A DNA stretch of 19,928 bases from Candidatus Thorarchaeota archaeon (GTDB taxonomy: Archaea > Asgardarchaeota > Thorarchaeia > Thorarchaeales > Thorarchaeaceae): the NCBI GenBank assembly GCA_048882485.1, contig JBHLRP010000054.1, positions 1 through 19,928 on the forward strand, given 5' to 3'. Positions 2,305 through 18,819 of this stretch are shown piece after piece. The notes below the pieces were generated by a model. It searched no databases, had not been told where the DNA came from, and was given only the letters and a program-made list of their open reading frames with translations. Position 1 is the first letter of the stretch; each line of letters starts with the position of its first letter. The translations under genes and the position numbers were made by a program.

Positions 2305-3648
2305 CTATTCAGTGATAGCGTGCGCTTGCATAGCAATTCTGGGCTTGAGCTCACGCACTGGAATACCAGTTTCCTTGGAAACCTTCATGACATCATCAGC
2401 CTCAGGTTTGATATTGATTATACTCCCATCAACACCTCGTGAGACCTTCACACGAACCATGAACTCCATGCCCTCGATTTCCATCTTGCACACAATGGTT
2501 TCTCTTGCCGCCTTGAGTCGGTCCCAAGTTGTGTATCGAATTCCCAGGGTTCCAAGATGCCTGATCATGATTTCTGCAATATTCTGCAGCCCGGATTTAG
2601 CTGCAATCACCTTTACAACGTAAACAGGACGATTCTTCTTCCCATAGGCAGGAATCATCACCACATCATAAGCTAGGCCCTCTGAAAGAAGAGTATCAAA
2701 CATGGTTCCCATTATCTCACCGTCGATGTCATCAACATTGGTTTCAATCACGATTACTTCATCCGCACTCCATGAATCAATCATCCCAGCTCTATCCTCC
2801 TTTTTCGTCTTCGGTGCAGCTTTTTTCTTTGCAGGTTCTTTCTTGGGTGGTGCTTTCTTAGTTGGCTTCTTCGGTTCAAGCTTGACTTCATCAGCAAACT
2901 CGCCGACGATGACTCTCATTCTATTAGTCACATCACCTAGGTCACGAGAGCCGAATCCAGTACCCTGTTGCTTGACCATGAAACCTTCAGATGATTCCAC
3001 AAACTCAGTTGCCAATGTGACCAACAGAGCAGCGCCTGTTGGCGTTAGGACTTCTGTTTTTGCCTCACCCATTATGAATGGAACTTCGTTTGTCACGAGT
3101 ATTTCAGCTACAGCAGGGACAGGCACCTCGAGAGGGCCATGTTCCGTTTGTATTGTGCCACTCCCAACTGCTACATGAGTTGCAATTATCCGAGTATCAG
3201 TTAGAAGGCCTGAACGTTCCATGAGATAAGCAGTTCCAATTAAATCTAGGATGGTATCGACCGAACCGGTTTCATGAAGATGCAGCTTGTCTATTGGGGT
3301 CTCATGTGCTCTCGATTCAGCCTGCAGAATCTCATTCAATGCTCTCTGAGCTATTTCTTTCGCAGGTGGTGATAGCTCCAATTCCTCGGCAACTGCATCC
3401 AACATTTCAATCAAGTCATTGGGCCTGAATCGCATCTCGGAGTCCTTGGACACCTCCAATCGAACTCCTGACTGGTCATTTTCAGTCTTAGTGGTGAATC
3501 GAACCCTTAATGCTGGATCATAAAGCAATAGACTTGCAGCCACCGGAAGAAGAGCATCGTCTTCACCCAGAAAATCGACTAGTGCAGATAGAAACATGTC
3601 CCCTGATGTGCCAGCATTCCTGACATCAATAAGGACGGTTCTTGTCAA
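2305..3648 (-). CDS. larC: Nickel-pincer cofactor biosynthesis protein LarC (nickel insertase), LarC1 and LarC2 fused in one frame
   Basis: Motifs GTSGDMFLSAL, ESRAH..LHLHETG.VDTILD, HGPLEVPVPA, TPTGAALL, GTGFGSRD, ETNVDD, KKNRP, TLGIR and KPEADD. TTG start with GGAG about 9 nt upstream; an in-frame stop at 3682-3684 limits any extension. Confidence 0.92.
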   Translation of the reverse strand: MTRTVLIDVRNAGTSGDMFLSALVDFLGEDDALLPVAASLLLYDPALRVRFTTKTENDQSGVRLEVSKDSEMRFRPNDLIEMLDAVAEELELSPPAKEIAQRALNEILQAESRAHETPIDKLHLHETGSVDTILDLIGTAYLMERSGLLTDTRIIATHVAVGSGTIQTEHGPLEVPVPAVAEILVTNEVPFIMGEAKTEVLTPTGAALLVTLATEFVESSEGFMVKQQGTGFGSRDLGDVTNRMRVIVGEFADEVKLEPKKPTKKAPPKKEPAKKKAAPKTKKEDRAGMIDSWSADEVIVIETNVDDIDGEIMGTMFDTLLSEGLAYDVVMIPAYGKKNRPVYVVKVIAAKSGLQNIAEIMIRHLGTLGIRYTTWDRLKAARETIVCKMEIEGMEFMVRVKVSRGVDGSIINIKPEADDVMKVSKETGIPVRELKPRIAMQAHAITE

Positions 3649-3854: not shown

Positions 3855-4667
3855 TCATTCTTTGAATGTCATCCGCGCATTTCTTTTCGCCGCAGAGCCA
3901 CCTCGCCGCCATTGTTCAAAGATTGCCATGTACATGCACTCTTGTGGACTAATCCACATATCAGAAGAGTCAAACGACTCATCGACGAACTCAACTGGTG
4001 CAGAACGAATCAAGGCCGCTGGGATTGATTCATCTGACTCACCCATCACTGCGGTACATGCAGAAGCAAGATTGTCCGCTATTGCTCGTCTAGTTATCCT
4101 CATCTCATTGCCAAAGAGATCAGTTCGTCCTCTGTCATCGGCCACCGGTCGAAATCCTGCCACACCAAGTGCCATCCCAATATTCCCAAGACGGAGTGGT
4201 TGAGTCCTGCTATCAATGATCAGAACTCCGATGTTTTTCCCATATCGATCATGTGCTGCCCGTCTTATTCGTTCAGCGCTCCCCTTTGGGTCGGTAGGTA
4301 GCAGAGACGCATGTCCGGGTGGCACATTGGACTTGTCCACGCCAGCGTTGGCCATGAGCGTGTTGTTTTTGATTGTTAGAATCACATGTGGAATCCCACC
4401 GAGAATCTCATCCGCCTCTCTGAGCACAAGCTCTGCGACCTCAGGCAAGAGATCATACTCATCAGCAAGCTCGATGGCTTCCTCACTAGGGTCAACTCCA
4501 GCAAGTTTGACTATCCGTTCTTCAGTAGTTCCTAATGGAGTCTCTGCAATCCCCAGGATGTCGTGATTCTCCAATTCGAGACCCTGTGATTCTAGTGCAC
4601 CAATGAGGACTTCAAGAATGTCATCAGTCTCAGAGATGATACACGTCTTAATGGGAAAGATTTGCAT
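3855..4667 (-). CDS. cofE: Coenzyme F420-0:gamma-glutamyl ligase
   Basis: Motifs ANAGVDKSN, LLPTDP..SAERIR, GVLIIDS...PLRLG..GMALGVAG, DDRGRTDLFG..MRIT..AIADNLASA and MGESDESIPAALIR. ATG 4667 (MQIFPIK) is preferred over the ORF-track start 4727 because GAGGT lies just upstream and the CofE N-terminus begins there. Confidence 0.92.
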   Translation of the reverse strand: MQIFPIKTCIISETDDILEVLIGALESQGLELENHDILGIAETPLGTTEERIVKLAGVDPSEEAIELADEYDLLPEVAELVLREADEILGGIPHVILTIKNNTLMANAGVDKSNVPPGHASLLPTDPKGSAERIRRAAHDRYGKNIGVLIIDSRTQPLRLGNIGMALGVAGFRPVADDRGRTDLFGNEMRITRRAIADNLASACTAVMGESDESIPAALIRSAPVEFVDESFDSSDMWISPQECMYMAIFEQWRRGGSAAKRNARMTFKE

Positions 4668-4727: not shown

Positions 4728-6164
4728 TTAGGCCTTGGATTTCTTCGACCGCTGAAGCTTCATCCTGGCATCCATTATGCATTTGTCGCCCTTTCGACCG
4801 CCCATTGGATTGTGAATAGTACCCATAGAATTCATGCATCGAGCGGCAACAGCCGCCCCCATTGCCAGACCATCTTCGACTATGAGCATTTGCCTCGACG
4901 CAGTCCATTTTGTGCCGCGGTCTGTAATCAGTTGTGAATTAATGATGCTAGGCTTATTTCCTGTTGTGATGGCCCTTCCTGTGAGTCCCAAGGAAGTATC
5001 TTCCAAAATTAGTCCTTCTGAGAACGCTAGGTCTACCAAGCGCTGTACCACTTGAGCCTGCACAAGATCAATGACGGTTAGCAAAGCATCAGTGCCGGAT
5101 TCTTTAACAATGCCCTTTCCAATTCGCTCCAAGTCTGAAAAGCGAGACCCATTCACTCCCGAGTCCACGCCTATCAGAATTACCTCGGATTCAATGGCTG
5201 CTTTCACATCAACTGGAACCATCCCAAATCTAGTAGTTCCCTTTGATATCGCCTCAACTCGAATATTGGAATGAATCTCATCTATCCAGTCATTGTCGAC
5301 ATCAACCTTTCGAGGCCGCGCTGAGTCTTTGACATCAAGAAGAGTACCAGTCTTTTCCTCTACGATACCAGAACCTCTGACTAAAGCATCCGGTATTGCT
5401 CCAGCTAAGCCAGCAAATGATCCAATGGTTTCTGCATATGGATGTCCATCATCTGTCACTCTACCAGCAAGAGTAGTTCCGAAGTCAAGGGTCATAACGG
5501 GATTTCTGAAGTCCACATCTGCAATCTTTGCTGCTCCTTTCAATCCAGCAGTTACGAGCTCGCCCTCCATCTCATTTGCGACTATCTCAGCATTAGATGG
5601 GGGAAGAGAACTGGCTACAGCACCGTCAAAGTATACCTTATGGAGCCAAGTGAAGTTTCTCAGACTTGGAGGAAGATTCTCCGGCGATATGGAAGCAGTC
5701 ATCTTTCTTGGAGCTACACCTGCATCAAGACAACCCTCCGCAAGCGCCTTAACAATGGCCCCGACTTCCTCCGGTTCGGCGAATCCTGCATTGACGCCTG
5801 TAGAACGAACAACAAAATGGAGGTCCTTATCGATGTCAAGTCGTGCGCGGACGAGTGCGGTTCTAAGTATATCAGATACCATCTCAGCAACTGACTCTTT
5901 CGTCAAGTCGATGCCAGTAAGTGTGCGACCAAAGACATCCTCGCCATTTAGTGGAGCGCGGACATCCCTGGTCATTCGAACTTCCTTGTCGATTTCGAAG
6001 ATTTCAGCAGTTTCGAGATTTGTCGATACAATCACACATTTTGTGGTCGTGTTTCCAAGTTCAACTGATGCAACGGTGTAGTAGGGTCCCATTCGAAGAC
6101 TAGAAGGTCCAATGCTACGCGGGCGAATCAGTCTCAATTTTCCTTCTCCTTTTCCATCATTCAT
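4728..6164 (-). CDS. mmp14: Methanogenesis marker protein 14 (DUF2114 family), actin/ASKHA-like ATPase fold
   Basis: Motifs YYTVASVELGNTTTKC, VRMTRDVRAP, DLHFVVRSTGV, VANEMEGELVTAGLK, DFRNP..TLDFGTTLAGR and C-terminal ARCMNSMGT..NPMGG..G.KCIM..R.K.Q. The ATG overlaps the mtrH stop (ATGA). An alternative TTG start at 6137 follows AGGAG. Confidence 0.9.
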   Translation of the reverse strand: MNDGKGEGKLRLIRPRSIGPSSLRMGPYYTVASVELGNTTTKCVIVSTNLETAEIFEIDKEVRMTRDVRAPLNGEDVFGRTLTGIDLTKESVAEMVSDILRTALVRARLDIDKDLHFVVRSTGVNAGFAEPEEVGAIVKALAEGCLDAGVAPRKMTASISPENLPPSLRNFTWLHKVYFDGAVASSLPPSNAEIVANEMEGELVTAGLKGAAKIADVDFRNPVMTLDFGTTLAGRVTDDGHPYAETIGSFAGLAGAIPDALVRGSGIVEEKTGTLLDVKDSARPRKVDVDNDWIDEIHSNIRVEAISKGTTRFGMVPVDVKAAIESEVILIGVDSGVNGSRFSDLERIGKGIVKESGTDALLTVIDLVQAQVVQRLVDLAFSEGLILEDTSLGLTGRAITTGNKPSIINSQLITDRGTKWTASRQMLIVEDGLAMGAAVAARCMNSMGTIHNPMGGRKGDKCIMDARMKLQRSKKSKA

Positions 6165-7096
6165 AGAAGTTTCCTGAAGGGGTGATTCGCTGGTGGCTCT
6201 AGACCCATTTCCATCTTTGCTGACTCGGCTGAAAAGATGTCTGCCATTGCTACCGCTGGAAACACTCTATCTGCATTGCCTATCGGACCATAAAGAAGGA
6301 AATCAGCTCCTAGTGACTGAACAACTAGGTTCGAGGCAATATCACATATCTTGTACGCTTCTCGGTTCTCCTTTCTATATTGCTTTAGCCAAGTCCATGA
6401 TGATGCGGCATTATGAATCCCAGAACCTGTAGGATGACCATACAGGGTTTTAGATACAAATGTGAAAGAGACCGCGGCGCCAGCTCCAGCCCCCATGGCT
6501 GTTGTGGCTGTATCAATCAGGGGTTTATTCACCCCTACGTCTTCTGCGATGGACAGTAGTCCCTGCTTCAGCGATGCAGTGCCTTCGTCGAGTATAGCCC
6601 TACGACCTGCTGTCGATGAGTCTTGCGGATTGAAGGCAAGCACAATTGCACACTCATGTTGGATATCACGCAGAGCATCAATTTCTTCCGTAGTCACGGA
6701 TATGTTGATAGAGTTGTAGATTGCCTTGTCGATGAGTCCAATCGCCTCAGAATACCGCAAACCTTCCACGCGTACCATAGGGTCTGTAGAATCAATGATG
6801 AATGGCGCATCCGTCAAAGCAGATACAAAATCTATGTATTTCTCCATAGCAATTGTCGACTCAGCGAATATCTGAACCATTGCAGGGTTTCCTGTCATAT
6901 CAGACATTGTTTCTTGACCGTTAATCAGATTCTCTGCTGCACTCGTATCCACTATCCCCTTGGAAGCATCTTGTACTATCTTGTGTCCTCCATAGAAGAT
7001 GGTCCCGGCCAGAACTGTTGGCGTTTCTCCGGGATTGCCCCCTATCTTTACGCCACCAATGTCATAGATGTACTGTTCTTTCTGAAACACAAACAA
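6161..7096 (-). CDS. mtrH: Tetrahydromethanopterin S-methyltransferase subunit H (pterin-binding TIM barrel), canonical-type copy
   Basis: N-terminus MFVFQKEQ...GGVKIGGNPGETPTVLAGTIFYGGHKIV, then IIDS, IYNSIN, IVLAFNP, PLIDTA, GHPTGSGIHN and GADFLLYGPI. TTG start with AGGAG upstream inside the end of mtrA. Confidence 0.92.
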   Translation of the reverse strand: MFVFQKEQYIYDIGGVKIGGNPGETPTVLAGTIFYGGHKIVQDASKGIVDTSAAENLINGQETMSDMTGNPAMVQIFAESTIAMEKYIDFVSALTDAPFIIDSTDPMVRVEGLRYSEAIGLIDKAIYNSINISVTTEEIDALRDIQHECAIVLAFNPQDSSTAGRRAILDEGTASLKQGLLSIAEDVGVNKPLIDTATTAMGAGAGAAVSFTFVSKTLYGHPTGSGIHNAASSWTWLKQYRKENREAYKICDIASNLVVQSLGADFLLYGPIGNADRVFPAVAMADIFSAESAKMEMGLEPPANHPFRKLL

Positions 7097-7099
7097 TGT

Positions 7100-7783
7100 C
7101 TACAACTCCTTTGCAATTAGAGCCGTTCCAGACTCAGTGGAATGAACCTCAATTCCGATAGATGTCGGATGGGCAGTGATTATAGCACCGGCTTCTTGAG
7201 AAGCAACTAAGAAAGAAAAGGGGTTCAGTGATACACCATATTCCGGAAGCAGAGAAATTGAAGCCCCAAATCCAATTCTTTCTGCCGTGCCTGCAGCCCC
7301 TCTGAAATCAATAAACATGGGTTCTTCATCAAAGGACCCTGGATTCTTGGCTTGCAGCTTTGCAGCCTTTTCAGCTATTTCATCAGCATGAGAGTTGTTC
7401 ATCATATCCACGAATTCGATCTGTTGCCTGAATCGCTCCACGCCTTCAAGTGGCACATTTTCAATATAGGGAATGGCTCCGGGTGCGTCCACTATCTTGC
7501 GTGTATCGGCGTCAACGCCGTTTTCGTAGAGAGCCTTCATAGATGATCCAGTCAAATGACCTGGAACCTCAGGACCTGCAAGAATCAAGAAACGAATGGA
7601 AGGATTCGAGATCACATTGATGATGACCCGCTCAATTCCAATATTCTCAGTCTTACATGTACCAAGTATGGCAAAACTACCAGGAACATGGAATTTCTTA
7701 CCTAATGTACAGATTGCTACAGAGTGATCGGGGTCTCCAACCTCGAAGTCTCCGGGCACATGAGGCCAGTTATTCGCAGACAT
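7100..7783 (-). CDS. mtrA: Corrinoid protein of the MtrA family, soluble (MtxA-like), no transmembrane anchor, about 55-aa C-terminal extension
   Basis: Motifs WPHVPGDFEVGDP, GTCKTENIGIERVIINVISNPSIRFLIL.G.EV.GH (cobamide-ligating His76), GAIPYIEN, VERFRQQI and PG.FDEEP. No hydrophobic C-terminal helix. GGAGG Shine-Dalgarno upstream. Confidence 0.92.
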   Translation of the reverse strand: MSANNWPHVPGDFEVGDPDHSVAICTLGKKFHVPGSFAILGTCKTENIGIERVIINVISNPSIRFLILAGPEVPGHLTGSSMKALYENGVDADTRKIVDAPGAIPYIENVPLEGVERFRQQIEFVDMMNNSHADEIAEKAAKLQAKNPGSFDEEPMFIDFRGAAGTAERIGFGASISLLPEYGVSLNPFSFLVASQEAGAIITAHPTSIGIEVHSTESGTALIAKEL

Positions 7784-7796
7784 GATGAAACCTCCT
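7784..7796 (-). promoter_or_regulatory. Shine-Dalgarno site of mtrA overlapping the upstream stop codon
   Basis: Minus strand reads TAGGAGGTTTCATCATG. Similar GAGG/GGAG sites precede both mtrH copies, consistent with a polycistronic mRNA. Confidence 0.7.
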
Positions 7797-8712
7797 ATTC
7801 CCTCGCCTTTGGCTCGAAGAGATGTTTCGTTGTTCCAAGCACTTGGCTAGCTTCCCCAACCGCCGAGAAAATTGCGTTCTGTATTAGCGCCACAGCTGCA
7901 AATACCTCTTGAGACCTTCTCATCGACCCATAAATTATGCAATCTGTGGCGAATAATTGGGCTGCCGCTATTGAGGCTACTACTGATGAATTGACTACCT
8001 CCTCTTTTTCTAGCTCCTGCTCCCTGATGAACTTCCAGGCAGATGGTGCATTATGTGGTGCTAGACATGTAGGCAGTCCCAGCTCTGACTTTACTGCGAC
8101 ATTCGTTCTCAGTTCTAATCCATATCCTGCTCCCACAGGCATCGTTCCAGGGTCAATAACGAATTTCTCTATCCCCAATCCCTTCGCATCAGAAACTATT
8201 GCCTCAATTACATCCATCCGTTCCTTCAGCGAGCTAGCCCTCGGGGACCATCCTAATACAACAGCCATGCTGAGCTGACTATCTTTCAAGAATGCACGTT
8301 CATCCTCATCCATGGACATATTGATCGAATTGTAGATTGCTCTCCCTGTTAAGCCAGCCTCATTGCAAAAGTCGGTGGCCCGCTTTTTGGCGCTAGAATT
8401 TGGGGATTCATACATGAAGGGGCCATCGAAATTCTCAGCCAGCCATGATAGATGACGCTCCATAGCAACGCCCGATCGCCCATATACTTCTACAATCATT
8501 GGATGACCAGTCCTCTCGGACATTTTAATCCCAGAGTCAAGCCACTCCTTTGCAGTCTTCTTGTCAAAGAGACCCTCTTTTGTGCTCTCCACAATTGATT
8601 GTCCTTTAAAGAAGAGTCCCCCCACAAGGACTGTTGGATTCTCTCCCGGATAGCCTCCGATTGTTATACCACTGAAGTCAAACGACTTCTGCTCTTTTTT
8701 AAAGACAAACAT
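7795..8712 (-). CDS. mtrH: Second, divergent MtrH-family methyltransferase (MtxH/MtgA-like)
   Basis: N-terminus MFVFKKEQ...GITIGGYPGENPTVLVGGLFFKGQSIV, then IYNSIN, VIDPG, GLPTCLAPHNAPSAW and IIYGS. Colinear over its full length with the 6161..7096 protein, but divergent. Confidence 0.85.
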   Translation of the reverse strand: MFVFKKEQKSFDFSGITIGGYPGENPTVLVGGLFFKGQSIVESTKEGLFDKKTAKEWLDSGIKMSERTGHPMIVEVYGRSGVAMERHLSWLAENFDGPFMYESPNSSAKKRATDFCNEAGLTGRAIYNSINMSMDEDERAFLKDSQLSMAVVLGWSPRASSLKERMDVIEAIVSDAKGLGIEKFVIDPGTMPVGAGYGLELRTNVAVKSELGLPTCLAPHNAPSAWKFIREQELEKEEVVNSSVVASIAAAQLFATDCIIYGSMRRSQEVFAAVALIQNAIFSAVGEASQVLGTTKHLFEPKARE

Positions 8713-8724
8713 TCTTGTTCAACC

Positions 8725-9627
8725 TCAACCGGGACGTGGATAAAGCCCTGCTGACTTGATGAGTTCTGGTACGCAGGACTCCCAGCCTACAGCCATTATA
8801 TGAACGCCGTCCACTCCATTAATCGTTCTCAATGAATTGATAGTTTCAGCAGCAATAGACAGACCTTCTTGCTGGATTGCCTGTTCCTTTTCCTCATCAT
8901 CAAGCCCCTCAGCAGCATTATCTAGGCGTTGAAGAATCGCATCAGGAATTGTGATGCCAGATACATGTTCGGTCATAAACTCGGCCATTTCTAGTCCCCG
9001 CAAAGGAACAACCCCAGCTAGAATATACGTATTCAAATCCGCAAGGGATTCTACAAATTCTGCTAGGCGAGATATGTCAAAGACAGCTTGAGTCTGAAAG
9101 AATTGGGCACCAGATTCATGCTTCAACTTTGCTCTTTGTATCTGATACTCAACTGGTTCGACAAAGGGATCGAACGTGGCTCCAAGAAAGAAATCGGGCA
9201 CCCCCTCAATCTCCTCATCGGAATGGTCTTTGCCTGCCATCATTCGAGAAGCCAATCGAAGAGCTTGAATTGAATCAATATCTGAAACAATCTTGGCTTG
9301 GGTGTTTGATCCAAGACCCGGAAGGTCACCTGTAACAAAGAGCACATTGCGAATTCCTAGAGCATAGGCGCCATAAAGATCACTCATCAAAGCCACTCTA
9401 TTACGGTCTCTCATTGCCATCTGCAGGATAGGTTCTAGTCCTGCATCAAGTGCCAACCTTGCTCCTGCAATGCTGCTCATTCTGGGGATTCTTCGTGGAT
9501 TGTCAGGTATATTAACTGCATCACAGAAGGGCTTGACCACACTCGCCTTCTCAATCAACGACAGGTGGTCAGCTCCTCGAGGCGCACCTATCTCAGCGGT
9601 TACAACAAACTCACCGCTTTGCAGCAT
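8725..9627 (-). CDS. metF: 5,10-methylenetetrahydrofolate reductase (FAD-dependent MetF family)
   Basis: Motifs FVVTAEIGAPRG, DAVNIPDNP, EPILQMAMRDRNRVAL, GIRNVLFVTGD, GAQFFQTQAVFD, ILAGVVPL and GVDGVHIM. The true start may be a CTG at 9651. Confidence 0.9.
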   Translation of the reverse strand: MLQSGEFVVTAEIGAPRGADHLSLIEKASVVKPFCDAVNIPDNPRRIPRMSSIAGARLALDAGLEPILQMAMRDRNRVALMSDLYGAYALGIRNVLFVTGDLPGLGSNTQAKIVSDIDSIQALRLASRMMAGKDHSDEEIEGVPDFFLGATFDPFVEPVEYQIQRAKLKHESGAQFFQTQAVFDISRLAEFVESLADLNTYILAGVVPLRGLEMAEFMTEHVSGITIPDAILQRLDNAAEGLDDEEKEQAIQQEGLSIAAETINSLRTINGVDGVHIMAVGWESCVPELIKSAGLYPRPG

Positions 9628-9732
9628 TTGCCCAAGACGAGATATCGGCAGTTTTGGGGACTCCCTGTGTGTGGATAGTGAAGGGTCAACCGATGTGAAC
9701 CTCTTAACTACTTTGGTGTGTTTTCAAGAATC

Positions 9733-17990: not shown

Positions 17991-18192
17991 CTACTGCATA
18001 TCAATCATGTAAACAGAAGGTCTTTCGTATGCAAAGGGGAGTTGGTCAAGATATTCTTGCGTCAGCTCCCTATTTTAGGAAACGCTAAAGCCCAAGCAGT
18101 CAGACCGGTCGATTTTTGATAGTCCGCATACCTTCATATTGCTTCAGACTGACTCATAATAGCTGCAAAAGTTGAGGGAGCATCGGATAGGG

Positions 18193-18819
18193 ATGTATGA
18201 TAGACTGATGCCCGATGACTACGAGAGAGAGATAGAGATAGACATTCTCAGGGCATTTGGGTGGTCCATAATTGAGTTTGAGCCAGTTCTATATCAGAAG
18301 TATCTGCATATGTCAGCTCGAAGTTCAGTTATGCTCGAGGTTGATTTCAAGAAGCAATTGCAGGAGATGCACGCAAAGGGCTTTGTGTCGCCTCTTGAGT
18401 TTCAAGGAAGGAAGGCTTGGAGGAAGCTGGTGATTGAGTCAGAGATGGAGGAGGAACTCCAAGACGAGGATGAGATTCGGGCACTCATTGAAGCGGCAAA
18501 GCGGGCTCGCCACAAGCAGAGGAGGAAGAAGAAGACTCCTCATGGTAGAATCGTGACTGAGTCCAGAATCATTGCAGAAGAGATTCTAGGCACTCTAAGG
18601 GACAAGGTGATTCGAGGGGAAATGTCAGACCAAGCTGCACGGGATATTCTAATGCAGCATATTGAAGGAATGAGACGATCTCTATTGGAATCACCTGATG
18701 AGTTCATGAAATATGTCAGAAAAAACATTCCTGGCATGAGAAAGCCCATGAAGCATATTCTGGCATCCAAGGGGGAAGATGTGCTTCTTCTAAGTCTGCG
18801 CCTGATTGGCAATGAGTGA
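18193..18819 (+). CDS. Hypothetical protein with possible N-terminal winged-helix domain, charged linker and helical C-terminal domain
   Basis: Long open frame filling the gap between the ABC operon and the prenyltransferase. ATG 18193 is preferred over TTG 18172. The pattern FKKQLQEMHAKGFVSPLEFQGRKAWRK resembles a wHTH recognition helix and wing. No family recognised. Confidence 0.7.
   Translation: MYDRLMPDDYEREIEIDILRAFGWSIIEFEPVLYQKYLHMSARSSVMLEVDFKKQLQEMHAKGFVSPLEFQGRKAWRKLVIESEMEEELQDEDEIRALIEAAKRARHKQRRKKKTPHGRIVTESRIIAEEILGTLRDKVIRGEMSDQAARDILMQHIEGMRRSLLESPDEFMKYVRKNIPGMRKPMKHILASKGEDVLLLSLRLIGNE

What the first reader, a model, noticed from the sequence alone, without database searches (positions are those of the whole stretch)
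4728..9651. metF - mtrH' - mtrA(soluble) - mtrH - mmp14 operon: candidate cobamide shuttle linking the folate and methanopterin C1 pools
Seen: five co-oriented genes with gaps of 12, 11, 3 and -4 nt and internal Shine-Dalgarno sites. Two different MtrH paralogs flank one MtrA that lacks a membrane anchor. No mtrE/D/C/B/F/G, mtxX or mcr genes are in the window. Established: MtrH-family barrels transfer methyl groups between a reduced pterin and a corrinoid. MtrH uses methyl-H4MPT, while the homolog MtgA methylates H4folate. MetF interconverts methylene- and methyl-H4folate. The Na+-pumping methyl transfer to CoM needs MtrE and the other membrane subunits. Inference: one corrinoid carrier between two pterin-binding methyltransferases is the minimal design for a methyl-H4MPT:H4folate transmethylase, with MetF connecting to methylene-THF and Mmp14 maintaining the corrinoid. 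Such a system would join the archaeal-type and bacterial-type methyl branches of C1 metabolism without ion pumping. It differs from the Methanosarcina mtxXAH operon by having two H copies plus MetF and marker 14. I know of no characterised example but cannot verify novelty.
Basis: partly seen in the sequence, partly recalled or inferred. Interest (0 to 1): 0.9.

Follow-up and report, generated by a model that had tools for sequence, protein, structure and literature searches.

The report
Membrane-free two-site Mtr methyl shuttle
Thor (Asgard) archaea keep a soluble leftover of the methanogens' vitamin-B12 methyl pump, in which the B12 carrier seems tethered to a pair of specialised methyltransferases, perhaps to swap methyl groups between two one-carbon carriers; the gene set was partly published, but its build and job were not.

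Summary
Observation confirmed. The metF-mtrH'-mtrA-mtrH-mmp14 operon is real and a core trait of Thorarchaeia: core four genes in 57/60 loci, metF in 52/54 loci long enough to show it. Part of it also occurs in Sifarchaeum. MtrE and McrA were not found.

MtrA's membrane anchor is replaced by a fused MtrB-like docking arm. The two MtrH residues that grip MtrB in methanogens are split between the paralogs: Arg211 only in H1, acidic residue 5 only in H2. This suggests a heterodimer.

H2 is canonical. H1 is a diverged canonical-type MtrH, not MtgA (AU p=4e-6), with an invariant Glu at the catalytic Asp and a reduced basic tail patch.

The methanopterin-folate shuttle is my best reading but only about 40% likely. 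This genome has both C1 branches. However, many carriers lack Mer, Mtd, Ftr and ACS, 46/47 lack the methanopterin enzyme MptG, and two lack MetF. The main rival is H1 as a non-catalytic scaffold.

Thorarchaeia MtrAH plus a linked marker is published as a remnant (PMC9635834). This scan also found the operon and the MtrB arm before, on other genomes. Verdict: new variant of a known kind, chemistry untested.

The parts
8725..9651 (-). MetF, methylene-tetrahydropterin reductase (YitJ/acetogen-like type; first ATG 9627, possible CTG start 9651). The genome's only MetF; no MetV found in this genome
   Evidence: PF02219 E=6e-28, PRK08645 200 bits; single copy (15, 75); MetV absent here but directly upstream in 20 related loci
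7795..8712 (-). MtrH' (H1), diverged paralog of canonical MtrH. Keeps N128, D187, H220, N221; invariant E102 replaces the catalytic Asp; G32, F35, Q38; lacks the K242/K243 tail patch; keeps the MtrB-gripping Arg (R202)
8407..8409 (-). H1 Glu102 (56/56), at the position of MtgA Asp102 / MtrH Asp103
   Evidence: D102A abolishes MtgA activity (PMC7154762)
8107..8109 (-). H1 Arg202 (56/56), equivalent to M. mazei MtrH Arg211, the partner of MtrB Glu9; H2 has A/S/G there (0/58 Arg)
   Evidence: PMC12774963
7100..7783 (-). MtrA: cobamide domain (aa 3-164, His76 invariant 59/59), flexible linker (about aa 162-175), soluble beta tail; no membrane anchor
7199..7258 (-). MtrB-like docking arm fused to MtrA (aa 176-195; P180 and E181 invariant 59/59; E181 = MtrB Glu9)
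   Evidence: top PDB hit MtrB 8q3v_B 7-26 for the Thor tail profile (E=0.053) and for the Sifarchaeum tail (E=0.02); MtrB models are the most frequent NCBIfam hits; numbering
7103..7198 (-). second half of the MtrA tail, two further predicted strands (P206 58/59, G219 59/59); origin unresolved
   Evidence: MtrF likeness not shown
6161..7096 (-). MtrH (H2), canonical: T32, Q75, D102, N128, D195, H228, N229 and basic tail patch kept; acidic residue 5 in 50/58
   Evidence: TIGR01114 399 bits; best PDB match M. mazei MtrH E=3e-81 (16)
4728..6164 (-). Mmp14 / DUF2114, ASKHA-fold putative ATPase; follows mtrH exactly as in methanogen mtr operons; invariant C145, C443, C462
   Evidence: TIGR03285 594 bits; model pLDDT 85; folds; mtrH-mmp14 adjacency in Methanosphaera
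3855..4667 (-). CofE-like gamma-glutamyl ligase, probable sixth member; candidate pterin (FolC2-like) glutamylase
   Evidence: seen in 57/60 loci; lies between an mtrH fragment and mmp14 in Sifarchaeum; the least CofE-like and most TIGR04132-like of the genome's three paralogs

Best explanation
A soluble, non-pumping descendant of the methanogen Mtr complex that moves methyl groups between two differently tailed reduced pterins. The membrane half (MtrCDE, the F/G stalk and the anchors) is gone. MtrA carries its own MtrB-like arm and clamps onto an H1:H2 heterodimer; its cobamide domain, on a flexible linker, visits the two active sites in turn. H2 does the canonical half-reaction with a long, acidic-tailed, methanopterin-type carrier. 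H1 stands in for the lost MtrCDE half-reaction and uses a shorter-tailed, folate-type carrier. MetF(V) interconverts that methyl-pterin with the methylene level used by FolD/Fhs and glycine cleavage. Mmp14 is an ATP-driven helper for the MtrA cobamide. Shown: genes, conservation, absence of the pump, residue patterns, folds. Inferred with good support (about 0.7): tethering and heterodimer. Inferred weakly: H1 catalysis, the identity of the two pterins, the direction of flow, and Mmp14's job.
For: Anatomy: MtrB-like arm in two separate lineages. In M. mazei this arm binds the MtrH dimer interface through R5-D5 and E9-R211 (PMC12774963); here E181 is invariant, R211 is kept only by H1 (56/56 vs 0/58) and the acidic residue 5 only by H2 (50/58; Lys 53/56 in H1). 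H1 is as conserved as H2 (74% vs 73% column identity). H1 keeps four pterin-ring residues and the corrin-contact rim W155, M/L191, P192 (PMC12774963; bioRxiv 10.64898/2026.07.03.736320), which argues against decay. The proposed methanopterin tail patch is intact in H2, while only the Arg/Lys matching MtgA R236 remains in H1. This genome has both enzyme sets. G003, G005 and G013 (95-98% complete) have Mer, Mtd, MetF and Fhs but no ACS, MetE, Rossmann corrinoid protein or third MtrH, so both methyl-pterins would be dead ends unless exchanged.
Against: H1's invariant D102E sits at a residue essential in MtgA (PMC7154762); E79 is reversed to Arg in 55/56 (116). H1 is not of MtgA descent, so folate use would be convergent. 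G022, G030, G053, G076 and G078 keep the module without Mer, Mtd, Ftr or ACS. G008 and G009 lack Mer, ACS and corrinoid proteins. MptG is found in 1/47 genomes and not in this one, so methanopterin would have to be scavenged. G010 (single-contig chromosome) and G014 lack MetF yet keep H1. Which MtrH subunit supplies D5 and R211 in the solved homodimer is not stated in the text I read, so the partition argument is an inference.
Confidence: 0.4

Rival explanations
1. One catalyst, one scaffold. H1 is the descendant of the idle 'distal' MtrH copy: it holds the MtrB-like arm and may bind pterin only to regulate. H2 alone methylates or demethylates MtrA with the cell's single pterin, possibly a home-made folate. 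MetF(V) acts on that same pterin in place of Mer, as proposed for ANME-1, and methyl-MtrA trades with a partner encoded elsewhere.
For: D102E invariant, E79R, and the docking Arg only in H1. In M. mazei only the proximal MtrH engages MtrA (bioRxiv 10.64898/2026.07.03.736320). The genome has a true DHPS and MptE but no MptG, FolC or FolA hit, plus a linked CofE-like ligase; a CofE homolog replaces FolC in Chlamydia (PMC1971073). MetF is in 53/59 genomes and Mer in 24/59 (75, 77). Precedent for MetVF replacing Mer: PMC5947290 (a proposal, not biochemically shown).
Against: A pure scaffold should not keep N128, D187, H220, N221 and a corrin-contact rim invariant. No universal outside partner was found: ACS 21/47, MetE 0/47, Rossmann corrinoid proteins 27/33, McrA 0/5 (83, 84, 118, 119).
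Confidence: 0.3
2. A complete substrate-demethylating system. H1 is a methyltransferase I for an outside methylated compound with a pterin- or guanine-like ring (scavenged methyl-pterins, methylated purines), MtrA is the carrier, H2 is methyltransferase II, Mmp14 is the activator, and MetF(V) oxidises the product towards formate and ATP via FolD/Fhs.
For: The layout matches the classical MT1-corrinoid-MT2-activator plan (established knowledge). The module survives where no internal methyl source is evident (G008, G009). MetV sits beside metF in 15/17 ACS-less but 1/14 ACS-bearing loci (kin are not independent), as expected if methyl groups must be oxidised when they cannot enter acetyl-CoA.
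Against: No candidate substrate, transporter or regulator is linked. Near-universal retention (80/87) suits housekeeping more than a niche substrate.
Confidence: 0.2
3. Methionine supply: methyl-MtrA donates to homocysteine through a MesA-type core methionine synthase, with MetF upstream.
For: MesA is predicted to use MtrA (PMC7857596); MetF usually serves methionine synthesis.
Against: PF01717 in 0/47 genomes; no MetH homocysteine or pterin domain hit in this genome.
Confidence: 0.03
4. Scattered subunits of a full membrane Mtr/Mcr system, or a decaying relic.
For: The genome is 90.5% complete; the genes are of canonical Mtr descent (PMC9635834).
Against: No MtrE, MtrB or McrA. The anchor is replaced by a conserved soluble arm. 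Intact frames and invariant sites across about 16 genera.
Confidence: 0.02

Closest known systems
Methanogen MtrABCDEFGH (N5-methyl-H4MPT:CoM methyltransferase; PDB 8Q3V, 9QTP/9QTS) with its neighbour mmp14
   Same: Canonical MtrA cobamide domain with His ligand, canonical MtrH (H2), mtrH-mmp14 adjacency, MtrB-type docking arm
   Different: No MtrE found, no membrane anchor, arm fused to MtrA, second diverged MtrH, MetF(V) and CofE-like genes added, no Mcr
Thorarchaeia 'canonical MtrAH' and marker m26 as methanogenesis remnants (Adam et al. 2022, PMC9635834)
   Same: Same lineage and same MtrA/MtrH; a marker 'tied to Mtr' retained (that m26 is DUF2114 I take from note e1-2790919 and the matching distribution; not checked in the supplement)
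   Different: The main text I searched does not mention the second MtrH, MetF, the MtrB-like fusion or a mechanism
MtgA of Desulfitobacterium hafniense (methylcorrinoid:H4folate methyltransferase, PMC7154762)
   Same: Same barrel family; H1 keeps N129, D194, N227 and an R236 equivalent
   Different: H1 is outside the MtgA clade, has Glu for Asp102, lacks Ser32, Asp75, His38 and Tyr230, and is paired with MtrA rather than a Rossmann corrinoid protein
Methanosarcina mtxXAH (from memory; not tested) and Asgard MtrA-MtrH fusions (PMC11291895)
   Same: Membrane-free MtrA/MtrH pairs of unknown function
   Different: No MtxX in the operon; two separate MtrH, Mmp14, MetF, fused MtrB-like arm
Acetogen/ANME-1 MetVF (PMC5947290)
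   Same: MetF with adjacent MetV in 20 loci and in Sifarchaeum
   Different: MetV missing here and in most ACS-bearing genomes; pterin specificity unknown

Membership tests
Energy-conserving Mtr complex | Membrane subunit MtrE (Na+ and CoM site) | tested here: not met
   PF04206 no match in the genome, 90.5% complete; MtrC and MtrD not searched
Energy-conserving Mtr complex | MtrA with C-terminal membrane helix | tested here: not met
   hydropathy and model
Energy-conserving Mtr complex | MtrA cobamide domain with His ligand | tested here: met
   PF04208 E=3e-59; His76 59/59
Energy-conserving Mtr complex | MtrH with T32, Q75, D103, N129, D196, H229, N230 and basic patch | tested here: met
   H2 only
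Energy-conserving Mtr complex | MtrB N-terminal arm docking the MtrH dimer | tested here: inconclusive
   homologous arm fused to MtrA (E 0.02-0.05, top hit twice); no free MtrB; homology only
Energy-conserving Mtr complex | Coupling to Mcr / methyl-CoM | tested here: not met
   McrA 0/5 genomes including this one
MtgA (folate-methylating MtrH homolog), for H1 | Membership of the MtgA clade | tested here: not met
   NF047990 177 bits vs cut-off 550; AU test p=3.7e-6 (120)
MtgA (folate-methylating MtrH homolog), for H1 | Catalytic Asp102 | tested here: not met
   Glu in 56/56
MtgA (folate-methylating MtrH homolog), for H1 | Methyl transfer with H4folate | not testable with these tools
   needs an enzyme assay
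RACo/RamA corrinoid activators, for Mmp14 | ASKHA ATPase fold | tested here: met
   (Z up to 17.6, many ASKHA families near the top)
RACo/RamA corrinoid activators, for Mmp14 | RACo domains and ferredoxin-type Fe-S domain | tested here: not met
   only PF09887 matches; true RACo genes lie elsewhere in the genome
RACo/RamA corrinoid activators, for Mmp14 | ATP-dependent Co(II) to Co(I) reduction | not testable with these tools
   needs an assay
MetVF-type reductase | Adjacent MetV (PF12225) | tested here: not met
   absent in this genome; present in 20 related loci
MesA-MtrA methionine synthesis | Core methionine synthase PF01717 | tested here: not met
   0/47
mtxXAH | MtxX gene in the operon | tested here: not met
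   window scans; not searched genome-wide

The most novel reading that the evidence does not exclude
A self-tethered MtrA-B fusion on an asymmetric MtrH heterodimer acts as the first dedicated methyl-H4MPT:H4folate transmethylase. It evolved from the methanogen sodium pump by replacing the membrane half with a duplicated MtrH, and Mmp14 is the unidentified ATP-dependent activator of the MtrA cobamide in methanogens too.
Probability: 0.3. Interest if true: 0.85.

Novelty: new variant of a known kind. Interest (0 to 1): 0.6.

Why it matters
It gives a concrete build for the Mtr remnants whose role is stated to be unclear (PMC9635834) and shows how an ion pump can be reduced to a soluble enzyme. 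Four small soluble proteins offer a membrane-free way to test what methanogenesis marker 14 does. If the two-pterin exchange is real, it links the archaeal and bacterial C1 carriers in an Asgard lineage. It would also bear on how MetVF works beside methanopterin pathways, as in ANME-1.

Tried and rejected
Complex prediction of H1 + H2 + MtrA tail: no answer (0.48, 0.28, 0.03; median under the mark); not used as evidence either way. H1 as an MtgA relative: suggested by two short motifs and rejected by the tree. An H1+H2 clade is neither recovered nor rejected (p=0.23). MesA/MetE route rejected. MtrF likeness of the second half of the tail (lead from note e1-5620084): no match to the one MtrF tested, and none in the PDB search; unresolved. 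The tail profile against Methanosphaera MtrB is only weak (best E=0.41 of 441 ORFs, though an MtrB-position ORF ranked first). RACo (3zyy) ranked 19th in Foldseek and was not among the top 50 by VIA, and the diol dehydratase reactivase ranked 37th, so fold alone gives Mmp14 no function. The NAD(P)-dependent Mtd search (PF09176) rang in no control and is uninformative. The homolog search returned only H1 orthologs in its listed top 120. The careful 114-row tree did not finish; the quick tree and a finished 40-row tree agree. Literature searches found no functional study of Mmp14 and no two-pterin transmethylase, but the library lacks most subscription papers.


Full report
Observation. The MetF start is uncertain between ATG 9627 and CTG 9651. 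MtrA keeps the cobamide His and has no membrane helix. A cofE-like gene follows 60 nt downstream. Relatives place the genome in Thorarchaeia; it is 3.96 Mb and 90.5% complete.

Distribution. Mmp14 is in 80/87 genomes of the class. In a phylum sample it is in 54/55 of this family and in one other genome, Sifarchaeum, but in none of the other 164 genomes searched. Of 60 fetched loci, 57 show H1-mtrA-H2-mmp14 and the other three end at contig edges. metF precedes the block in 52 of the 54 loci long enough to show it. Sifarchaeum has H1-mtrA-H2, a separate metVF pair, and cofE between an mtrH fragment and mmp14. The wider neighbourhood (hflX, larC, polB) is also conserved in Thorarchaeia, so metF and cofE linkage within the class is partly inherited gene order.

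The MtrA tail. Its first 20 residues match the MtrB N-terminus. MtrB (8q3v_B, residues 7-26) is the top hit among 177,635 PDB sequences for the Thor tail profile (E=0.053) and again for the Sifarchaeum tail (E=0.02). MtrB models are the most frequent NCBIfam hits. The scores are weak but twice on target. In M. mazei this segment docks the MtrH dimer, through Arg5-Asp5 and Glu9-Arg211 bridges (PMC12774963). Tail Glu181 corresponds to Glu9 and is invariant (59/59). Arg211 is kept in every H1 (56/56, also Sifarchaeum) and in no H2 (0/58). Position 5 is acidic in 50/58 H2 and Lys in 53/56 H1. This split is what a homodimer turned heterodimer would leave. It is an inference: I could not read which chain gives which contact, and the Arg5 equivalent in the tail is not conserved.

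The two barrels. H2 keeps every pterin residue listed for MtrH and the basic patch proposed to hold the methanopterin tail. H1 keeps N128, D187, H220, N221 and the corrin-contact rim (W155, M/L191, P192). It has G32, F35, Q38 and R79, an invariant E102 at the Asp that is essential in MtgA (PMC7154762), and only the first of the three basic residues. Glu at this site is rare in the family; Asp occurs in 86 of the other representatives. H1 is as conserved as H2. In the tree H1 lies on a long stem inside a 100/99 clade with M. mazei-like and Methanosphaera MtrH and other mtr-operon copies. Grouping it with MtgA-like proteins is rejected. H1 is therefore a specialised duplicate of canonical MtrH. 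A third, unrelated MtrH lies elsewhere beside RACo and a Rossmann corrinoid protein.

Metabolic setting. This genome has Fhs and FolD side by side, glycine cleavage, Mch, Mtd, Mer, ACS, five Rossmann corrinoid proteins and a methanogen-type ThyA. It has no MtrE, McrA, MetE or MetH homocysteine domain. Across the class: MetF 53/59, Fhs 56/59, Mch 46/47, Mtd 31/47, Mer 24/59 over its cut-off, ACS 21/47, MetE 0/47, MptG 1/47. These are incomplete, related genomes, and Mer-like paralogs below the cut-off are common.

The pattern cuts both ways. G003, G005 and G013 have both reductases but no other recognised methyl source or sink, which fits an exchange. G022, G030, G053, G076 and G078 lack Mer, Mtd, Ftr and ACS; an exchange would make sense there only as a relay from their corrinoid proteins. 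G008 and G009 have neither, and G010 and G014 lack MetF. The genome's true DHPS and MptE, the missing MptG and FolC, and the linked CofE-like ligase (precedent PMC1971073) suggest the home-made pterin is a folate, with methanopterin scavenged or absent.

Mmp14. The model (pLDDT 85) is an ASKHA fold. Kinases, FtsA, Kae1, a benzoyl-CoA reductase subunit and a dehydratase activator all rank near the top. It follows mtrH in methanogens too. Its retention with MtrA/H after loss of MtrE and Mcr points to the cobamide module as its client, which agrees with the published remark that marker m26 is tied to Mtr (PMC9635834). Activation is a guess.

Mechanism and odds. The tethered soluble complex is likely (about 0.7). 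For the chemistry I put two-pterin exchange at 0.4, H1 as scaffold with one pterin at 0.3, H1 as demethylase of an outside substrate at 0.2, and the rest at 0.1.

Novelty. It works like the soluble half of Mtr but is not a member of the pumping complex, and H1 is not an MtgA. The MtrAH remnant is published. I found no paper on the second MtrH, the MetF link or the fused arm. Earlier notes of this scan report the operon and the arm on other genomes; I found the arm before reading them, and they are not independent evidence. Interest 0.6.

Noticed in passing
class-wide: Thorarchaeia keep Mch (46/47) and often Mtd and Mer but lack beta-RFAP synthase MptG (1/47): their methanopterin-type enzymes must use a scavenged or different pterin.
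   Followed up: partly
L052:2907-3563 and 19 other loci: metV sits upstream of metF in 15/17 ACS-less but only 1/14 ACS-bearing genomes; kin are not independent.
   Followed up: partly
window 3855-4667: The operon-linked CofE paralog scores lower on CofE and higher on TIGR04132 than the genome's other two; no FolC hit in the genome. Candidate FolC2.
   Followed up: partly
L014:5347-6339 (G000 C64): Second MtrA-like domain fused behind a 2x[4Fe-4S] ferredoxin, downstream of cysteine synthase-like and serine acetyltransferase-like genes (names read from sequence).
   Followed up: no
L013:7790-11080 (G000 C10): Third MtrH with RACo and a Rossmann corrinoid protein: a conventional methyltransferase II module, present in about half of the genomes.
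   Followed up: partly
L165 (G000 C38:21135-24848): mptE and a 423-aa DHPS with an unassigned C-terminal extension lie divergent to gcvT-gcvH; no FolA, FolC or clear SHMT hit in the genome.
   Followed up: partly
L184, L185 (G000 C32, C123; also C24, C37): One MttB-like gene and three genes that look MtmB-like (by eye; no NCBIfam hit for the one tested), each beside a corrinoid protein: possible methylamine-type donors.
   Followed up: partly
L034 (G014): Rearranged locus without metF: cofE lies divergent upstream of H1 and hflX is inverted downstream.
   Followed up: no
L141:3186-3778 and L148:11232-11386: In Sifarchaeum an RRXRR/HNH-like ORF follows H2, and a second, frameshifted mtrH end precedes cofE-mmp14 on another contig; possibly an insertion that split the operon.
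   Followed up: no
L021, L022, L027, L029, L037, L055, L057: Solute-binding-protein-like genes are inserted directly upstream of metF in several genomes.
   Followed up: no
window 2305-3648 and 18172-18819: A fused LarC1-LarC2 nickel insertase follows cofE in most loci; a 215-aa ORF at 18172 has no family.
   Followed up: no
L190:228-1820: A 530-aa MtrH fused to a Rossmann B12-binding domain in a metagenome contig.
   Followed up: no
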